Shown here: piece by piece, positions 1 to 12,000 of the stretch
How positions within the stretch are numbered: the stretch's first letter is position 1
Layout of the letters: the number at the start of each line of letters is the position of its first letter
Source: Lytechinus pictus
Lineage: Eukaryota
NCBI RefSeq assembly: GCF_037042905.1
Contig: NC_087249.1
Span: 51,026,001 to 51,090,000, forward strand
Length of the DNA stretch: 64,000 nucleotides
Reading direction: 5' to 3'
Position numbers: made by a program

Positions 1-3000
1 TCCGTTGTTTGTGGTCTTTAACATTCTTAACGGCGGCCTCTTGTGTTGGGCATGGTGAGAAGTCTCAGGAACATGAGGAACGGCTAAGGTCTGACCAATA
101 CTGTTGAAGGAGCTTTTCTTCCTAGATATTTCTTGCCGGTTTGTTGGTAGACTTTGGTGGTGAAGTTTCCATGCGTTTCATTGAGTTGCTTAATGCCTGA
201 CCAACATTATGAAATGAATGGGAGTCTCTGCTCTAAATACTTTGTAATCATCGCTACAAGGAGACTTTGGGAATGCATGTTTCATGTCTTTACAAGGAGT
301 AGTTAGCGTTTTGGAAGAGTTTCTTATTCGTGCTTTCCTGTCATCAATTGCTTACTGCTTGACTTAAAAAGTACTAACGAAAGGGTTGGCCTTTATTTGA
401 CCACCAAGACTCTGGATGGATCATGTGGACCTTCGGTTGTTGAGGGTTAGGTAACAGTCATTCAGAGCGCTTTTGTTGTGTAGGATTCCTGACCACTCAT
501 CAAGGGGTGGTTGATAACTGACCAACATCTCTACCCTCGATGTTTCATTACTGGGAGACTTTAGATGTTGATGTCTCAATGAACTTTTAATGTTTCGTCA
601 ACATTCGTGAAGGGGTTTCTGTTCTTAATGGTTTATTAAAGTTGTTAGAGGAAGGTGGACTTTAGAGCTAGAAGTTTCCTGCCGTATTTGACCGACAGAT
701 TTGGTAGCACTTCATTCTCAATACTTTGTTGCCTTCTTTACCATGGTTACTAAATAACTTTGGATGATACACTTTCCAGACGTTTTTTTTTAAAGCACTT
801 GATGGGAGTTCTGTGCTGTTGTTTTTTCTTCCTCTTCTTTTTAAAGGATCATTACCATGGTATGTGAAAGGCATTGCTCATGTCTTGTCTCAATATCTGG
901 ATGCCTTCGAGTTTGGTGAATGTTTTTGTGGAGGATGCTGGGACTTCGGGATCTCACACGTCAACATAGCTGTAGTTGGTTTGGTGATGAATACCAACTG
1001 CTACTGTAATGGCTCAAGGTAGTCAATGGTTCTTGCTGATGCGATGTGAACTCCGTTCAGGACTGAGGCAGAACCATCTATCTTTTACCCTGCTTCCACA
1101 TAAACGACCTCTTAGTAGTCCATTCTGGGTTCCAAGCATGAGACCAGGTCTTCTTACTCCATCCTCACCGACCTCTTGCATTCAGTAGCAGGCAGTGATA
1201 GTTTCGATTTGGTGGAGGATTTCTTCCATGCTCTGTGGCCTCTCAAGTGGATCCTGCTTTGAGCAACTGTCTGCAAGCACCTGTACCTCTTTCACCTCGA
1301 TCTTTTTCGCGATAGACCTGAGGAGCACCCCGAAGGAAAAGATATCGGATGCCACTGAGTATCGTTCCCCATACAGGACAACTTCAGGAGCCAAGAAATA
1401 ACAACCCTTGCCAGCTCTGTATTCGGCCTTTTTCTCCTCAGAGAATCGCTTCTGGTTGGCATAGGCGATGGTGCTGACCAGTCCGAGATCGATGATGACG
1501 GCGTGCCACCGCCTGCTTCGCTTCTCCAACAGGACATTGTTTGATTTCAAGTCGTTATGAAGGAATCCTCTCTCATGGAGCTCCATGATGCCTTTGATGA
1601 TGTCTTGGCAGACCTTGAACAGGTTGTTCACGTCAAGTCGTGGGTTGGGCATGAAGCGAGTGAGAGCTTGATACAGTGGGTAGGTCTTCCCAGTCGCTCT
1701 ATCGCCTATGAAATCCATCACAGTGCACAGGTTTTCATCAATGGTGACCATACCCAGTATCTTGGGGAAGTATGTTGAACCTGACAGCAATTGCTGCAGC
1801 ATTGATTCCTTCACGGCCCTTCCCTTCATCAGGTGCTTCTCTTCCTTGACCAAATCTCCGCAATAGCTTGTCGGCAAGGTCGGTTTCTTGATGGCGATGT
1901 TTTGTCCATCTTCAGCATATCGACCAAGGTAAACCATTCCGTAGGTGCCTTTGCCGAGGATTCGCATGTCGCCAAGATCTCCTGGTAGCTTGTAACCAGG
2001 GAAGGGTAGAATGTCTTCAACGTCAAGGACATCACAGCGGATGTTAGGCATTGATGCAATGGCAGCATGATCGACGGTATTCCTCACTCTGTATCGAAAG
2101 CCACCTCGTTTCTTCCTCAAGCAATTTGTCTTCAGGCTGTTTTGTGTAAAACAAGATAATAAAAATACTAAGTTAACATTAAAATTAGATCGATCCCAAC
2201 TTGTCAAGTTACCTTTGAAAGAGTAATATCAAACATATTTCATGCGCAGCAATATCTTAAAGAAATAACTTTAGGGTATGAGACGCCCCCAACCCTCTTC
2301 CACTCCATTCCTGAAAAGTTTTTGTTACCCCCCCCCCCCATTTTTTTTTTTATTGCTCGATGACTCAAATTTTTGTTGGCAAAAGGTGAAAATATCTTAC
2401 ATTTCAACGAGATCCCGGAGACGTTGAATCAGGGTCTCCTTTCTGGAGTTGTCAAGCTTGAGGATCTTGATGTCGTTCTGAAGCTCTCTCCTGGAAGCCT
2501 TCTGCCTCTCCACACGATCTTTATCCATCCTCTCCGACTGCTGGAGCTGCTCCACCCGGTCTGCCATCAGGGTGAGCTTGGCTTCCAGAAGACTGTGCAT
2601 GGGAGGTGTGATGGTCAAGAAAGGTGTGTAAACGCAGTCACTTGCGTAGTCGTGCATGTAGGTAATATTATTATTAGTAGTATCGCACATGCAAAAGTTA
2701 GAATAAAAAATATCATGCACATCAAGAGGAAGGAGAGATAGTTACAAAGAAAGAGAGGGGAGAGAGAGAGAGAGCGGGGAGAGAAAGAAGAGATGGGAAG
2801 GGGTGAGAAAAAGATGGAAGAGAGAGGGGAGGCAGAGGAGGCAAGAAAGAGGGGTAAGAGAAAGAGGGAGGGAGAGAAACGGAGTCGGAAGAAACAGGGG
2901 AATCGATATAGGTTTAGCTAATACAACGATTAAACAAAGAAAAGATGGAGATGGATTTAATTCGAAAATAGGAATTTGAGATCATTATTGATATAAATAT

Positions 3001-9000: not shown

Positions 9001-12000
9001 CGGATGCTCAACCTCAAACTTTTGAGTCTGAGGCCGAGCCTCGGTTGAATCCAAATCAGAATGAGTCTGCCCTTCCACATGCTCATGAGCGAGAGTCTCT
9101 GCGATGAGTCCAGGCTTTGTCCCATTCTGAAGGCAGTCTCCTACTGTGGTGAGTTGAGTAACGGTCTCATCCATGAGACCGATGCTGCTACCATGGCTAC
9201 TGGCAGATGACTCAATAGGTAATTGAGTCAGTTCTTCCACAGGCTCATGAGTGAGAGTCTCTGTGTTGAGATCGGACTTTGTCTCATCTCCAACTGGAAT
9301 AACAGTGCCGTGTGCAGCGGTCTTGGTCTTGAGACTGATGCTGCCACTCGCTTCTGAATCCATACCAGACTGAGTGTGTCCTTTCACAGGCTCGTAATTA
9401 AGAGTCTCTGTGTTGAGTCCAGTCCGGGAAAGGGACTCGGCAAGCTCGATCTTCTGAGTGAGAGTTCCTGATAGATCCATGATTGATCCCTGTACATTCA
9501 TATGCTCAAGAATGTGAGTCTATATCTGTACTAGTTGATCCTCAGTCTGAATCTGTAAGTCTCTATCTATGCAGATAGATTTGAGACAGCTTCCGTCCCA
9601 AGGATTTAGTGATACCACCCGAAAAATTCCTGAAATCAAAGGGACATGAAAACATTGTGAAATGGCATGGAAGAAGACACATCCAATATCAAGGAAATTT
9701 TGAACGAATGCATTATTTATTACAGTGGCGTGATGAGCCAAATTTTTTGAGGGGGGGGGCTAGATATGGCGTATCTTGTCAATTTTTTTTTTTTTTTGTT
9801 GCAAGCGAGCAAAAATTTCGACGTTTTTATTACAAAAGTACAAATTTGTTATAGATTTTGCGATAATATTCAGAATATGATATATTCCATCCTTCTGTTT
9901 TTCCTTTTCTTTTTTTTTCTTGGTCGTGAAAAATTTGGGGGAGCCCCCCCCCTTATCTGATGGCCACTGATTTATAGTTTGACCATAAAACATGCACCTA
10001 GTGCCGCTAAACTACACATTGAGCATAATGAGGATAATCACTATAATCTATCTTGAATAAAAGTTATCATGAAAACTACTTTACTTAAATCTGTTTTGTT
10101 ATGCATGTAAGGTTGTCCTTTTACTGACAGGTTTATAATAAGTTTTGAGATCAACTGACTAACAGTAATCTGCAGTTCAAACTTCAGAAATACTATTTTT
10201 ATTTTATTTTTTTGTTTAATACAAACACGTTCAAGTTAGCGTGATGTGCCAATCCTGAATGAACGATACAGATACAGAACACACACATCATGCAAATATT
10301 CGTACTTTTTGTAAGTCATCAAACCTGCAAGGGATTTTAAGTTTTCATTGAATAACACGACATCAAAATCAAACGAAACACTCAATACCACCATAGTTAA
10401 ACATTAAAAAATAAGGATAAAAATAATTTTTAATTACCTGAATTTAAAGTTTTTAACTATCAGAAATATATGGCAGGTTTTATCACTTCCAAAATCGCTT
10501 GAAAGAGACGTAAAAGCTGTGGGAATTCTCGAAAAATCACCAGAATAGCAACACGAATGCTACTAATTAAAGAGATAAGACAAGAATGACGTTTGTTGAT
10601 TTTGCAGGGATCGAGCGAGCGGGGCTTAATTCACTGCGCATGCGTTGTAACTATAGGGAAAACTTTTAGCCAATCGCGCACTTTGGATGAGGTGAATCTA
10701 ATGAATATTCATATATTTATGTCAGCGCGTAACACTTTCGGCCAATTGAATCGTTGGCAAAACCAGTTTTCCCCGTACCAGGGCTAATGACGTCATAAAG
10801 CATTTCGCGCAAGGATTATGCTTTGAGAAATGACGAAACAATGGATATGAAAATATTATCCTATTTTTGTGTGTGTTGGGCAGTGGCGGATCCGGGGGGG
10901 GGCACAGCCAGACCGTGCCCCCCCCCCCCCTTGAGGGGCACAATTAAAATTTGTAATGTAAAAATGTCCTTTTTTTTTGCTTGTCAAGTTTTTTTCGTGG
11001 ATGAAATTTCCTTAATTTTCGGTTGAAAACATTTTTTTTGGGGGGGGGGCTTGACAAATTCTTTCGTGGACGAAATGTCCTTAATTTGTGGTTGAAAATC
11101 TTTTTTTTCATGTCAATTGTGCCCCCCCCCCCCTTGGAAAATCCTGGATCCGCCCCTGGTGTTTGGTAACGGTCATACTACTGTTTCGGGTCTCCAACTA
11201 CATGTAGCTTCTATATTTGAGTTTGTTATTTAAAAAATAACATTTTACTCAACCTCATTCTGGAAACAATGAGAGCAATGCTATTATGGCAACAATCACA
11301 AACGGAAATGTTAGACTCTTAAAAAAAACGCTTTCGGGGATATAATTCTTCTCTTCATTTTCTTTCAAGGTATGTGATTTTTTTTTATTTAAAAAAAAAA
11401 AAAAAAAAAAATTGAGGACCTTTTATATTAAAAAAGGGGGATTTTTATTTCTATAACTTTTATTTGAATAATTATATTATGAAATGCATTTGTTAAGAGG
11501 ACATGACATATATAATCATCAGTGGCCGAGCTCCTGAACTTCACTGACCCCATCTCTCTACACTCGTCTAGCTCTCTCACATCACTTAGTTCTTCAACAA
11601 CCTTGCAGCTAACACCAGGACCCCGAATGTTACCTAGTTATGGTGATCGAACCTTCTCTGTTCTTGCCCAAATCCAATGGAATAAATTGCCATAATGCAC
11701 ACATAATGCCAACTACCTCAATCAATTTAAGACCTTGCTAAAGACCCGCCTTTTTAATAATTAGATATTATTTTGTAGGTTGGTCTCTGTGGAAGTGCAC
11801 ATCAGTGGTTTCATTTTGTTTCTTTTTAACTTGAGATTATGTAATCCATTCATTCATTGATTCTATTGGTTGAACCTTTTTTTACATTCCAGGTAATTAA
11901 GAAGTAATCAGAAGTTTAGCGCTTAGGAAAATAGATCTGTATTAAGCGCCTTATAAATACTATTATCACGATTTAAAAAAACTGGCCAAATAACATAAAA

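What the first reader, a model, noticed from the sequence alone, without database searches (positions are those of the whole stretch)
1182..9501. Hidden 10-exon gene: repeat + coiled-coil stalk fused to an intronless non-RD kinase
Seen: ten GT-AG exons join into a 901-aa ORF, although the ORF track shows only fragments. The kinase keeps all catalytic residues but has HND instead of HRD and DLG instead of DFG. It is encoded by one exon, while the stalk is split into many small exons. Established: non-RD kinases do not need activation-loop phosphorylation in the usual way and are enriched among innate-immune signalling kinases (e.g. IRAK1/RIPK-type). Inference: a mobile or retroposed kinase cassette was captured by a coiled-coil gene, giving a lineage-specific oligomerisation-activated kinase. 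I cannot assign it to any named family.
Basis: partly seen in the sequence, partly recalled or inferred. Interest (0 to 1): 0.65.

Follow-up and report, generated by a model that had tools for sequence, protein, structure and literature searches.

The report
Sea-urchin coiled-coil stalk kinase gene
This is a real, intact ten-exon sea-urchin gene for a protein kinase carried on a long helical stalk, one member of an unnamed kinase family that other sea urchins also have, so it is an ordinary gene of uncharacterised function rather than a newly captured mobile kinase.

Summary
On the minus strand, ten GT-AG exons (9501-1182) with compatible phases give 901 codons plus a stop. The kinase has HND and DLG and lies in one 955-nt exon. 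All ten exons line up in order with Strongylocentrotus purpuratus proteins of 818 and 809 aa. A Lytechinus variegatus protein, 96% identical, reads across the last two junctions exactly as predicted. The gene is therefore real and not peculiar to this genome. The kinase belongs to an unnamed family in which the Asn of HND is the hallmark: 20 of the 22 closest relatives have it, while DLG/DFG/DMG varies. The nearest solved kinases are BRAF, IRAK4 and RIPK1, with none standing out. More distant family members (P0031, P0032) also carry stalks with the same roughly 60-residue repeat, so stalk plus kinase is old. Recent capture of a retroposed or mobile cassette is not supported. A model places the stalk segment next to the kinase as a parallel homodimer (score 0.52, best control 0.01), which fits dimerisation-driven activation. 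Any immune role is untested.

The parts
8854..9501 (-). Exon 1 (216 aa) with the start codon at 9501-9499. It encodes an acidic, Thr/Ser/Glu-rich N-terminal region with three copies of a GLNTETL..EPV..TQ motif.
   Evidence: frame and donor GT; matches P0001 residues 7-144, E 8e-26; repeat units align with 0, 0 and 7 of 2000 shuffles reaching the score; net charge -20. No Pfam family and no Atlas lead.
9355..9420 (-). N-terminal repeat core, copy A (exon-1 residues 28-49)
9208..9273 (-). N-terminal repeat core, copy B (exon-1 residues 77-98)
9046..9111 (-). N-terminal repeat core, copy C (exon-1 residues 131-152)
8145..8327 (-). Exon 2 (61 aa), stalk repeat copy 1 (LLQIVQELTGIPADSSPEVLAKTLQELW...). 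The intron phase is 0 on both sides.
   Evidence: P0001 147-207, 59% identity, E 2.5e-20; repeat profile (this exon was a seed).
7397..7573 (-). Exon 3 (59 aa), stalk repeat copy 2, phase 0/0
   Evidence: P0001 209-266, 66% identity; found by the repeat profile when it was not a seed, i-E 0.0027.
6307..6435 (-). Exon 4 (43 aa), first part of stalk repeat copy 3, phase 0/0
   Evidence: P0001 267-310 and P0003 116-159; exon 2 against exon 4, E 1.5e-5.
5868..5930 (-). Exon 5 (21 aa), helical tail of repeat copy 3, phase 0/0
   Evidence: P0001 313-332, E 8e-5; in P0001 the third repeat runs over the equivalents of exons 4 and 5.
5133..5300 (-). Exon 6 (56 aa), helical stalk segment, phase 0/0
   Evidence: P0003 182-236, E 1e-11; P0001 333-370. 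Not shown to be a fourth repeat copy.
4123..4251 (-). Exon 7 (43 aa), helix followed by the polybasic-tryptophan patch
   Evidence: P0001 375-420, 65% identity.
4141..4182 (-). Polybasic-aromatic patch KKKGKKKLRLRWWR
   Evidence: Similar patches were found by pattern in P0001, P0002 and P0032 and read by eye in P0003 and P0031. Function untested.
3197..3258 (-). Exon 8 (62 nt, 20 whole codons, ends in phase 2). The L. variegatus model P0022 starts at the Met inside this exon.
   Evidence: aligns with P0001 421-442 (2 of 2000 shuffles) and P0003 278-299 (3 of 2000). P0022 begins MQCDLAKKSATI.
2401..2592 (-). Exon 9 (63 whole codons), the best-conserved stalk helix, lying directly before the kinase exon. 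Its S. purpuratus equivalent is modelled as a parallel homodimer.
   Evidence: P0001 443-498, 57% identity. P0022, 92% identity. P0022 reads ..ATI-S-LLEAK.. and ..LVE-I-LKTNC.. across both junctions; dimer model; weak heptad signal (15 of 300 shuffles).
1182..2136 (-). Exon 10 (955 nt): the pre-kinase segment, the whole kinase domain and the stop codon TGA at 1184-1182
   Evidence: Pkinase E 1.8e-23, 83.8 bits. AF2 mean pLDDT 90.4, pTM 0.89.
2001..2084 (-). Conserved pre-kinase segment (exon-10 residues 18-45), a helix plus strand packed on the N-lobe in the model
   Evidence: relatives align from residues 15-20 onward; helix 20-27; block pLDDT 92-94 for residues 21-40.
1206..1967 (-). Protein kinase domain (exon-10 residues 57-310)
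   Evidence: PF00069 57-276; PF07714 58-310
1938..1955 (-). Glycine-rich loop GKGTYG
   Evidence: G61, G63 and G66 nearly invariant
1887..1889 (-). Beta-3 lysine (Lys83 of IAIKK)
   Evidence: invariant in 25 sequences
1551..1559 (-). Catalytic-loop HND (non-RD). The Asn is the family hallmark.
   Evidence: CAT AAC GAC. N194 invariant. HND in 82 of 155 relatives and in 20 of the 22 closest.
1482..1490 (-). DLG in place of DFG, a variable position within the family
   Evidence: GAT CTC GGA; among the 22 closest relatives, DLG 12, DFG 7, DMG 3; Diadema P0003 has DFG.
1383..1391 (-). APE motif
   Evidence: E251 invariant

Best explanation
This is an intact, ordinary protein-coding gene of an echinoid genome. 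The kinase exon is 96% identical to a Lytechinus variegatus protein. The gene is the orthologue of that protein and a co-orthologue of two adjacent-looking S. purpuratus paralogues and of a Diadema antillarum protein.

Shown:
- Ten exons encode, in order, an acidic and probably disordered head with three short repeats, then a helical stalk of about 350 residues.
- The first three stalk units are copies of a repeat of about 60 residues, each beginning at its own phase-0 exon.
- A polybasic-tryptophan patch follows, then a conserved helix that runs into a conserved pre-kinase segment.
- The C-terminal kinase is of the TKL/TK-like kind and keeps every catalytic residue, but has Asn in place of the HRD arginine.

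Inferred:
- The helix next to the kinase forms a parallel, in-register homodimer. This would hold two kinase domains side by side, so that activity is set by dimerisation (trans-autophosphorylation or allosteric pairing, as in RAF, IRAK4 or RIPK kinases).
- Without the HRD arginine, the kinase would not need an activation-loop phosphate to neutralise that charge.
- The head and the basic patch would then be the parts that receive signals or localise the protein.

Substrates and pathway are unknown. The stalk-plus-kinase design is old within the family and is not a recent capture.
For: Gene model: splice sites, phases, open frames; exon G+C 0.51 against intron 0.31.

Collinearity: 9 of 10 exons match P0001 significantly and in abutting order. 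One search covers exon 8.

Junctions 8/9 and 9/10. P0022 from L. variegatus is 96% identical and has the predicted split-codon residues Ser and Ile.

Orthology. The window exon and P0022, the three S. purpuratus rows and Diadema P0003 form a 6-row clade with SH-aLRT 100.

Kinase competence: (K83, E110, H193, N194, D195, K197, N200, D216, G218, E251, D264 and R299 invariant or nearly so in 25 sequences). One search gives a confident kinase fold (pLDDT 90.4).

Family hallmark.

Affinity: BRAF 89 bits, IRAK4 86, RIPK1 83; IRAK4 top, TM 0.65, then MerTK, LIMK1, BRAF, Roco4, RIPK2, JAK2.

Old stalk. The repeat profile finds P0003 (1.4e-8) and P0031 (7.4e-6) as non-seeds and several copies in P0032, with 0 hits in shuffled sequences. 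In one search, P0031 and P0032 lie outside the orthologue clade.

Dimer: two copies of P0001 residues 405-504.
- Score 0.52 against a best control of 0.01 (3 controls).
- Calibration: the mark was reached by 21 of 30 proteins solved as pairs of one chain and by 0 of 23 solved as single chains. On eukaryotes it was reached by 17 of 29 (animals 7 of 16), but by only 1 of the 7 with no older solved relative.
- Runs agree in at least 100% of contacts and partner pLDDT is at least 81.
- Contacts are i-to-i with 3-4 spacing from residue 423 to 504.
Against: - No transcript data were available. The L. variegatus model starts inside exon 8, so a shorter product or an internal promoter is possible.
- The dimer was modelled on the S. 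purpuratus protein, not the window's, and without the alignment. Coiled coils may score from memory of solved ones.
- My crude heptad test is weak. Only exons 5, 8 and 9 have z near 2, and exons 2-4 and 6 show nothing.
- The full-length model of P0001 is poor (mean pLDDT 40.3, pTM 0.24), so the 'helical stalk' rests on its secondary-structure line and on composition.
- Catalytic activity is inferred from conserved residues only. Asn at the HRD position has not been tested here for its effect on activity.
Confidence: 0.72

Rival explanations
1. One reading: a mobile or retroposed, intronless kinase cassette was captured fairly recently by a multi-exon coiled-coil gene, giving a lineage-specific kinase.
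For: The kinase and its pre-kinase segment sit in one exon, and relatives align from residues 15-20 of that exon, so the module boundary lies close to the exon boundary. Short relatives of 335-356 aa exist. Kinase relatives carry many different N-terminal lengths.
Against: The same stalk plus kinase is present in Diadema (P0003). Stalks with the same repeat occur in more distant subfamilies (P0031, P0032). Two of the short forms are truncated models of long genes (P0022, P0170). Others begin with Phe/Leu/Ile-rich stretches such as a translated pyrimidine tract would give; P0026 aligns into the window's intron 9 at 2189-2137. This last point is an inference. No transposon or reverse-transcriptase domain was found: 0 of the 84 scanned ORFs matched any family, out of 91 listed. 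The window holds one kinase copy only. A large terminal exon is common in ordinary genes (established knowledge).
Confidence: 0.08
2. Two genes rather than one: exons 1-7 form a separate stalk gene, or are untranslated or decaying, and the kinase gene starts in exon 8, as the L. variegatus model suggests.
For: P0022 (394 aa) starts at the Met within exon 8. The older S. purpuratus model P0170 (401 aa) also starts just before the exon-9 equivalent.
Against: The current S. purpuratus models (818 and 809 aa) and the Diadema model (680 aa) are continuous. In the window, exon 7 ends and exon 8 begins in phase 0 with GT and AG in place. All seven upstream exons are open and 43-69% identical to S. 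purpuratus, and they are G+C-rich like the coding exons. This speaks for selection on one reading frame.
Confidence: 0.08
3. It is the sea-urchin orthologue of DSTYK (the 'dusty' kinase), as the automatic name of P0001 implies.
For: NCBI's name for P0001. The shared layout of a long N-terminal region with a C-terminal kinase is recalled, not tested.
Against: Only 1 of 5 named close relatives bears that name. P0002 is 'uncharacterized', P0022 is 'DDB_G0281745', P0170 is 'At2g47060' and P0171 is 'protein kinase C delta type-like'. A 931-aa representative with its kinase at 661-906 (P0141) has a layout I recall for DSTYK, but it is unnamed. It scores 74.5 bits and 34% identity, against 211-694 bits for family members, and it has HCD, not HND.
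Confidence: 0.04
4. An MLKL-like executioner: the helical N-terminal part acts on membranes through the polybasic-tryptophan patch, and the kinase-like domain is mainly a regulatory switch.
For: The polybasic-aromatic patch is conserved in the stalk (by eye). MLKL is reported to be multiplied in S. purpuratus, and an echinoderm MLKL is reported to act in lytic coelomocyte death (PMC11932488, passages read). One distant kinase relative (P0057, E 2e-23) carries an MLKL_N domain.
Against: No MLKL_N match in any window exon or in P0001 or P0003. All catalytic residues are kept, unlike a pseudokinase. MLKL is not among the best 60 solved chains for the family profile. P0057's best-matching domain is HRD/DFG.
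Confidence: 0.05

Closest known systems
S. purpuratus proteins P0001 ('dual serine/threonine and tyrosine protein kinase-like', 818 aa) and P0002 ('uncharacterized protein LOC105443716', 809 aa), and Diadema antillarum P0003 (680 aa)
   Same: The order of parts is the same: repeat head, stalk repeats, polybasic patch, conserved helix, pre-kinase segment, HND kinase. All ten window exons have collinear counterparts. The kinase exon is 64%, 62% and 50% identical to them.
   Different: The window protein is longer (901 aa). Its head has three motif copies spaced differently, and exon 6 has 18 residues that the S. purpuratus proteins lack. Diadema lacks most of the head and has DFG. None of them has been studied experimentally as far as my searches show.
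Lytechinus variegatus P0022 ('probable serine/threonine-protein kinase DDB_G0281745', 394 aa)
   Same: It is 96% identical over exon 10 and 92% over exon 9, and it confirms junctions 8/9 and 9/10.
   Different: The database model starts inside exon 8 and lacks everything encoded by exons 1-7. I found no Lytechinus protein covering those exons, but only proteins of 449-1432 aa were searched.
TKL-group kinases with solved structures: BRAF, IRAK4, RIPK1, RIPK2
   Same: They are the best profile and fold matches. The catalytic loop is of the H-x-D-L-K-S-N-N kind. RIPK1, as I recall, is also non-RD with DLG. All are regulated by induced proximity or dimerisation (established knowledge).
   Different: Scores are nearly tied (83-89 bits) and identities are about 20%, so it belongs to none of them. 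There is no death domain, RHIM, CARD or Ras-binding domain. The kinase is C-terminal to a helical stalk.
DSTYK (dusty kinase)
   Same: An automatic name for one relative. A C-terminal kinase after a long N-terminal region (recalled).
   Different: See the rival above. The review PMC10492769 (passages read) treats DSTYK as a divergent kinase outside the RIPK family. No named DSTYK sequence was within reach for a direct test.
MLKL
   Same: A helical N-terminal part, then a helix next to a C-terminal kinase fold. The helices next to the kinase fold mediate oligomerisation in MLKL (reference title seen in PMC11932488).
   Different: No four-helix-bundle domain was detected, and the catalytic residues are intact.
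Kinases activated through N-terminal coiled coils, such as Tousled-like kinase 2
   Same: Coiled-coil segments N-terminal to a C-terminal kinase, with activation tied to self-association (recalled; only the search listing of PMC6023931 was seen).
   Different: The kinase group is unrelated, and there is no sequence similarity in the stalk.

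Membership tests
Eukaryotic protein kinase superfamily | Match to the Pfam kinase models above their curated cut-offs | tested here: met
   PF00069 83.8 bits (cut-off 31.7); PF07714 79.4 bits (cut-off 23.1)
Eukaryotic protein kinase superfamily | Catalytic residues present: G-loop, beta-3 Lys, alpha-C Glu, HxD Asp, catalytic-loop Asn, DxG Asp, APE | tested here: met
   All are present; only the Arg of HRD (Asn here) and the Phe of DFG (Leu here) differ.
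Non-RD kinases (a class, not a clade) | No arginine before the catalytic Asp | tested here: met
   CAT AAC GAC at 1559-1551. Asn invariant in 25 sequences.
Unnamed echinoid stalk-kinase orthologue group (P0001, P0002, P0003, P0022) | Collinear match of stalk exons and kinase, and a kinase that clusters with these proteins | tested here: met
   (6-row clade, SH-aLRT 100)
TKL group | Kinase domain closer to TKL members than to other groups | tested here: inconclusive
   BRAF, IRAK4 and RIPK1 lead, but tyrosine kinases (JAK, MerTK, FGFR) score almost as well. No kinome classifier or named reference set was available.
DSTYK | Orthology to named DSTYK (reciprocal best hit or tree) | not testable with these tools
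   No named DSTYK sequence or solved structure was within reach. The paper on dusty kinases is not held. Leads against membership: inconsistent automatic names and the weak score of the 931-aa representative P0141.
RIPK family | N-terminal kinase followed by RHIM, death, CARD or ankyrin domains | tested here: not met
   The kinase is C-terminal. No such Pfam domain appears in any exon or in P0001 or P0003.
IRAK family | N-terminal death domain before the kinase | tested here: not met
   no death-domain match
MLKL | N-terminal four-helix bundle (Pfam MLKL_N) | tested here: not met
   no match. The model does detect MLKL_N in P0057, so it works in this setting.
MLKL | Pseudokinase, with loss of catalytic motifs | tested here: not met
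   catalytic residues kept
Retrogene or mobile cassette | Transposon or reverse-transcriptase genes, or extra copies, nearby | tested here: not met
   0 of the 84 scanned ORFs matched any family, out of 91 listed; one kinase copy in 64 kb.
Retrogene or mobile cassette | An intron-bearing parent gene; poly-A remnant and target-site duplication | not testable with these tools
   No eukaryotic genome collection is open, and flanking duplications were not searched for. An event older than the Diadema split would have lost such marks.

The most novel reading that the evidence does not exclude
The HND kinases are an unrecognised, widespread invertebrate class of non-RD kinases: 82 of the 155 closest relatives have HND, and named members come from four echinoids and a sea anemone. 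In the stalk-bearing members, a parallel dimeric coiled coil, a repeated TG..SPE...W sensor-like unit and a polybasic-tryptophan membrane or nucleic-acid patch would together make a proximity-activated signalling or cell-death kinase. It would fill, in echinoderms, the place that RIPK/IRAK/MLKL-type proteins hold in vertebrate innate immunity.
Probability: 0.1. Interest if true: 0.6.

Novelty: new member of a known kind. Interest (0 to 1): 0.3.

Why it matters
- Annotation. The Lytechinus database model covers only the last 394 residues. The full gene has seven more coding exons, so anyone studying this kinase in Lytechinus would miss the stalk.
- Kinase biology. The family has an invariant Asn in place of the HRD arginine and a conserved stalk repeat of no known family. 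It has no name, no structure and no function. It is a tractable case for asking how non-RD kinases are switched on by dimerisation, and what invertebrate-specific kinases do.
- Limits. It does not open a long-standing question, and nothing here ties it to immunity.

Tried and rejected
- Pfam on each stalk exon and on P0001 and P0003: nothing above cut-off.
- ESM Atlas on the P0001 stalk (best score 0.83, in the range of chance) and on exon 1 (no usable hit).
- Tandem Repeats Finder on exon 1 found only an 11-bp, 1.9-copy array. The protein-level repeats are too diverged at DNA level.
- The full-length AlphaFold model of P0001 was poor (pLDDT 40.3), so no fold search was made on it.
- A crude heptad test gave weak signals only.
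- Exon 6 as a fourth stalk repeat: not supported.
- My first regex census of HxD left 48 sequences unread and was replaced by the profile-aligned census.
The taxa of P0023-P0169 stay unknown.
- Rfam over the window: no match.
- Literature searches found no paper on this family. The dusty-kinase paper is not held, and supplements are closed.
- Hand-drawn exon boundaries were wrong by a few bases and were corrected.
- The genome-contig collection (bacteria and archaea only) was not scanned because it cannot bear on an echinoid gene.

Full report
**What is in the sequence.**

Read on the minus strand, 9501-1182 holds ten open segments, each bounded by AG upstream and GT downstream. My first hand-drawn boundaries were off by a few bases. 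The corrected set is 9501-8854, 8327-8145, 7573-7397, 6435-6307, 5930-5868, 5300-5133, 4251-4123, 3258-3197, 2592-2401 and 2136-1182.

- The first seven junctions are in phase 0 and the last two in phase 2.
- All nine donors are GT followed by a purine, and all nine acceptors are YAG.
- An in-frame TAG lies six codons before the ATG at 9501.
- Exons are 51% G+C and introns 31%.
- The window has no N.

I translated and searched the exons one at a time. What that leaves open is listed among the next steps.

**Is it a gene?**

Yes.

- The kinase exon finds two S. purpuratus proteins, P0001 (818 aa, 64% identity, named 'dual serine/threonine and tyrosine protein kinase-like') and P0002 (809 aa, 62%, 'uncharacterized protein LOC105443716'). 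It also finds a Diadema antillarum protein, P0003 (680 aa, 50%).
- Exon-by-exon blastp shows 9 of 10 exons matching P0001 significantly, in order and end to end: 7-144, 147-207, 209-266, 267-310, 313-332, 333-370, 375-420, 443-498 and 500-817.
- The remaining exon 8 (20 aa) aligns with the gap left at 421-442. Two of 2000 shuffles reach its score, and 3 of 2000 for the Diadema segment.
- A Lytechinus variegatus protein, P0022 (394 aa, 'probable serine/threonine-protein kinase DDB_G0281745'), is 96% identical over exon 10 and 92% over exon 9. It reads ...KKSATI-S-LLEAK... and ...DLVE-I-LKTNC.... These are exactly the residues predicted for the two split codons.

The window probably comes from a Lytechinus-like sea urchin. 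It is not human.

**The kinase.**

- Only exon 10 matches a Pfam family above cut-off (Pkinase 83.8 bits, PK_Tyr_Ser-Thr 79.4 bits). The other nine exons match none.
- HND is at 1559-1551 and DLG at 1490-1482.
- In an alignment of 25 family members the beta-3 Lys, alpha-C Glu, His-Asn-Asp, Lys197, Asn200, Asp216, Gly218, the Glu of APE, Asp264 and Arg299 are invariant or nearly so.
- AlphaFold2 with that alignment gives a confident kinase fold (mean pLDDT 90.4, pTM 0.89). It includes a conserved helix and strand ahead of the N-lobe; only residues 1-17 are unstructured.
- The exhaustive search of 1.84 billion representatives gives 15,942 hits at E up to 0.001, 411 at 1e-10 and 28 at 1e-30.
- Aligned to the family profile, 82 of the 155 fetched relatives have HND, 33 HRD, 9 HCD and 6 HGD. 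Of the 22 best-scoring, 20 have HND, while the DFG position reads DLG in 12, DFG in 7 and DMG in 3.

The Asn is therefore the hallmark of a family. DLG is just one state of a variable position; Diadema P0003 has DFG.

**Which kinase family?**

None that has a name.

- The single sequence matches solved structures only weakly (best E 1.6e-13).
- The family profile puts BRAF (89 bits), a JAK-type tyrosine kinase (88), IRAK4 (86) and RIPK1 (83) almost level.
- Foldseek puts IRAK4 first (TM 0.65), followed by MerTK, LIMK1, BRAF, Roco4, RIPK2 and JAK2.
- The five named close relatives bear five different automatic names. This shows that 'DSTYK-like' is a naming accident rather than an orthology call.
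- A review whose passages I read treats DSTYK as a divergent kinase outside the RIPK family (PMC10492769). I could not reach a named DSTYK sequence, so that membership stays formally untested.

**The stalk.**

Exon 1 is acidic (net charge -20) and rich in Thr, Ser and Glu. It carries three copies of a GLNTETL..EPV..TQ motif about 50 residues apart. The pairwise scores are reached by 0, 0 and 7 of 2000 shuffles.

Exons 2, 3 and 4 (the last with exon 5) are three copies of a repeat of about 60 residues. Each opens with L-x-x-x-x-x-I-[ST]-G..SPE...L...W and continues as a helix.

- Exon 2 against exon 4 gives E 1.5e-5.
- A profile built from six seeds finds exon 3, Diadema P0003 (1.4e-8) and P0031 (7.4e-6) as non-seeds. 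It gives 13 domains in real sequences and none in shuffled ones. Iteration adds a third copy in P0032 and a weak one in P0033.
- Each repeat starts at a phase-0 exon boundary, as expected of exon duplication (inference).

Exon 7 ends in a polybasic-tryptophan patch, KKKGKKKLRLRWWR. Pattern matching also finds such a patch in P0001, P0002 and P0032, and similar patches can be read by eye in P0003 and P0031.

No Pfam family, Atlas lead or solved structure explains the stalk. The full-length model of P0001 is poor (pLDDT 40.3). I use only its secondary-structure line, which has no regular structure before residue 167 and long helices from 167 to 504. My crude heptad test is weak, with z near 2 for exons 5, 8 and 9 only.

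**Self-association.**

I sent two copies of P0001 residues 405-504, the equivalent of window exons 8-9 and the first residues of exon 10.

- The verdict was that the model supports binding but does not show it: score 0.52, best of 3 controls 0.01.
- In the tool's calibration the mark was reached by 21 of 30 proteins solved as pairs of one chain and by 0 of 23 solved as single chains.
- On eukaryotes it was reached by 17 of 29 (animals 7 of 16), but by only 1 of the 7 with no older solved relative, so a pass may come from memory.
- The runs agree in at least 100% of contacts and the partner's pLDDT is at least 81. The alignment was not used.
- Contacts are residue i with residue i, at 3-4 spacing from 423 to 504. 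That is a parallel, in-register coiled coil ending at the kinase.

This was done on the S. purpuratus protein, not on the window's own.

**History of the fusion.**

In a quick maximum-likelihood tree of 49 kinase domains, the window exon and P0022 pair (SH-aLRT 99), join the three S. purpuratus rows, and then join Diadema P0003 in a clade of six (100). P0001 and P0002 are 87% identical and lie on one contig, so they look like a species-level duplication. P0031 and P0032, whose stalks share the repeat, fall outside that clade but inside a 17-row clade (98). Stalk plus kinase therefore predates these subfamilies.

Short relatives (335-356 aa) are interleaved with the long ones.

- Two short forms, P0022 and P0170, are demonstrably truncated models of long genes.
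- P0026 aligns into the window's intron 9 upstream of the acceptor.
- Several others begin with Phe/Leu/Ile-rich stretches.

I therefore suspect that many of the short forms are single-exon gene calls (inference).

I found no transposon or reverse-transcriptase domain: 0 of the 84 ORFs of at least 75 aa that I scanned matched any Pfam family. I listed 91 such ORFs and dropped 7 overlapping low-complexity ones at 24.8-25.8 kb and 41.3-41.5 kb. The window holds no second kinase copy.

**How it most likely works.**

- Shown: an intact gene and a complete catalytic apparatus without the HRD arginine.
- Low-confidence model only: the helical stalk.
- In-silico support only: the parallel dimer next to the kinase.
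- Inferred: dimerisation juxtaposes two kinase domains and sets activity, while the acidic head, the repeat units and the basic patch receive signals or localise the protein.
[quoted passage not shown] I saw only its listing. Its title also reports that one such kinase does use activation-loop phosphorylation. That link is a class-level tendency, not evidence for this gene.
- On MLKL: the paper PMC11932488 (passages read) reports MLKL multiplication in S. purpuratus, but the window protein lacks the MLKL four-helix bundle and keeps its catalytic residues.

**Verdict.**

This is an ordinary gene, and orthologues are already in the databases under inconsistent automatic names. It is a new member of an unnamed, uncharacterised HND kinase family.

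The useful by-products are a fuller gene model than the 394-aa Lytechinus entry and a description of the family's hallmarks.

What stayed unchecked:
- transcripts;
- the joined protein;
- eukaryotic genome loci;
- paper supplements.

Noticed in passing
window 52630-57399 (-): A single uninterrupted ORF of 1590 aa encodes a P-loop STAND-type ATPase (NPHP3_N, AAA_lid_TANC1, HTH_TANC1) followed by many ankyrin repeats and a long Ser/Pro/Gln-rich tail. It looks like an ANKRD50/TANC-type gene or its large exon. It is on the same strand as the kinase gene, 43 kb upstream.
   Followed up: partly
P0001 and P0002 (S. purpuratus): The two S. purpuratus full-length relatives are 87% identical, and the table lists both with a longest contig of 29,984,350 bases. 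This suggests a recent tandem or nearby duplication that the window (one copy in 64 kb) does not show.
   Followed up: no
P0038, P0039, P0043, P0048, P0050, P0074 and others: Many more distant relatives are very long predicted proteins with 3-10 kinase stretches each. One is fused to a PDS5 cohesin-associated domain and one to C2 domains. They could be tandem kinase arrays merged by gene prediction, or true multi-kinase proteins. Their taxa are unknown.
   Followed up: no
P0029 and P0031: Two family members carry long Glu/Asp-rich tails after the kinase (about 200 residues). The window protein ends right after the kinase.
   Followed up: no
window 3800-4060, 2740-2900 and 6990-7130 (introns 7, 8 and 3): Purine-rich (GA/GAA-type) low-complexity tracts lie inside three introns and give long spurious Lys/Glu/Arg- or Ser/Leu/Phe-rich ORFs. 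A similar Ser/Pro/Leu-rich low-complexity block lies at 24.8-25.8 kb.
   Followed up: no
window 392, 586 and 632 (minus strand): AATAAA or ATTAAA-like signals lie 550-790 nt downstream of the stop codon and are candidate poly-A signals for the gene. The 3' end was not determined.
   Followed up: no
P0028, P0031, P0173: Several relatives, including the sea-anemone protein, begin with Arg/Lys-rich N-terminal stretches (for example QRKANRPRR-like), reminiscent of nuclear-localisation or membrane-binding signals. The window protein has its basic patch inside the stalk instead.
   Followed up: no
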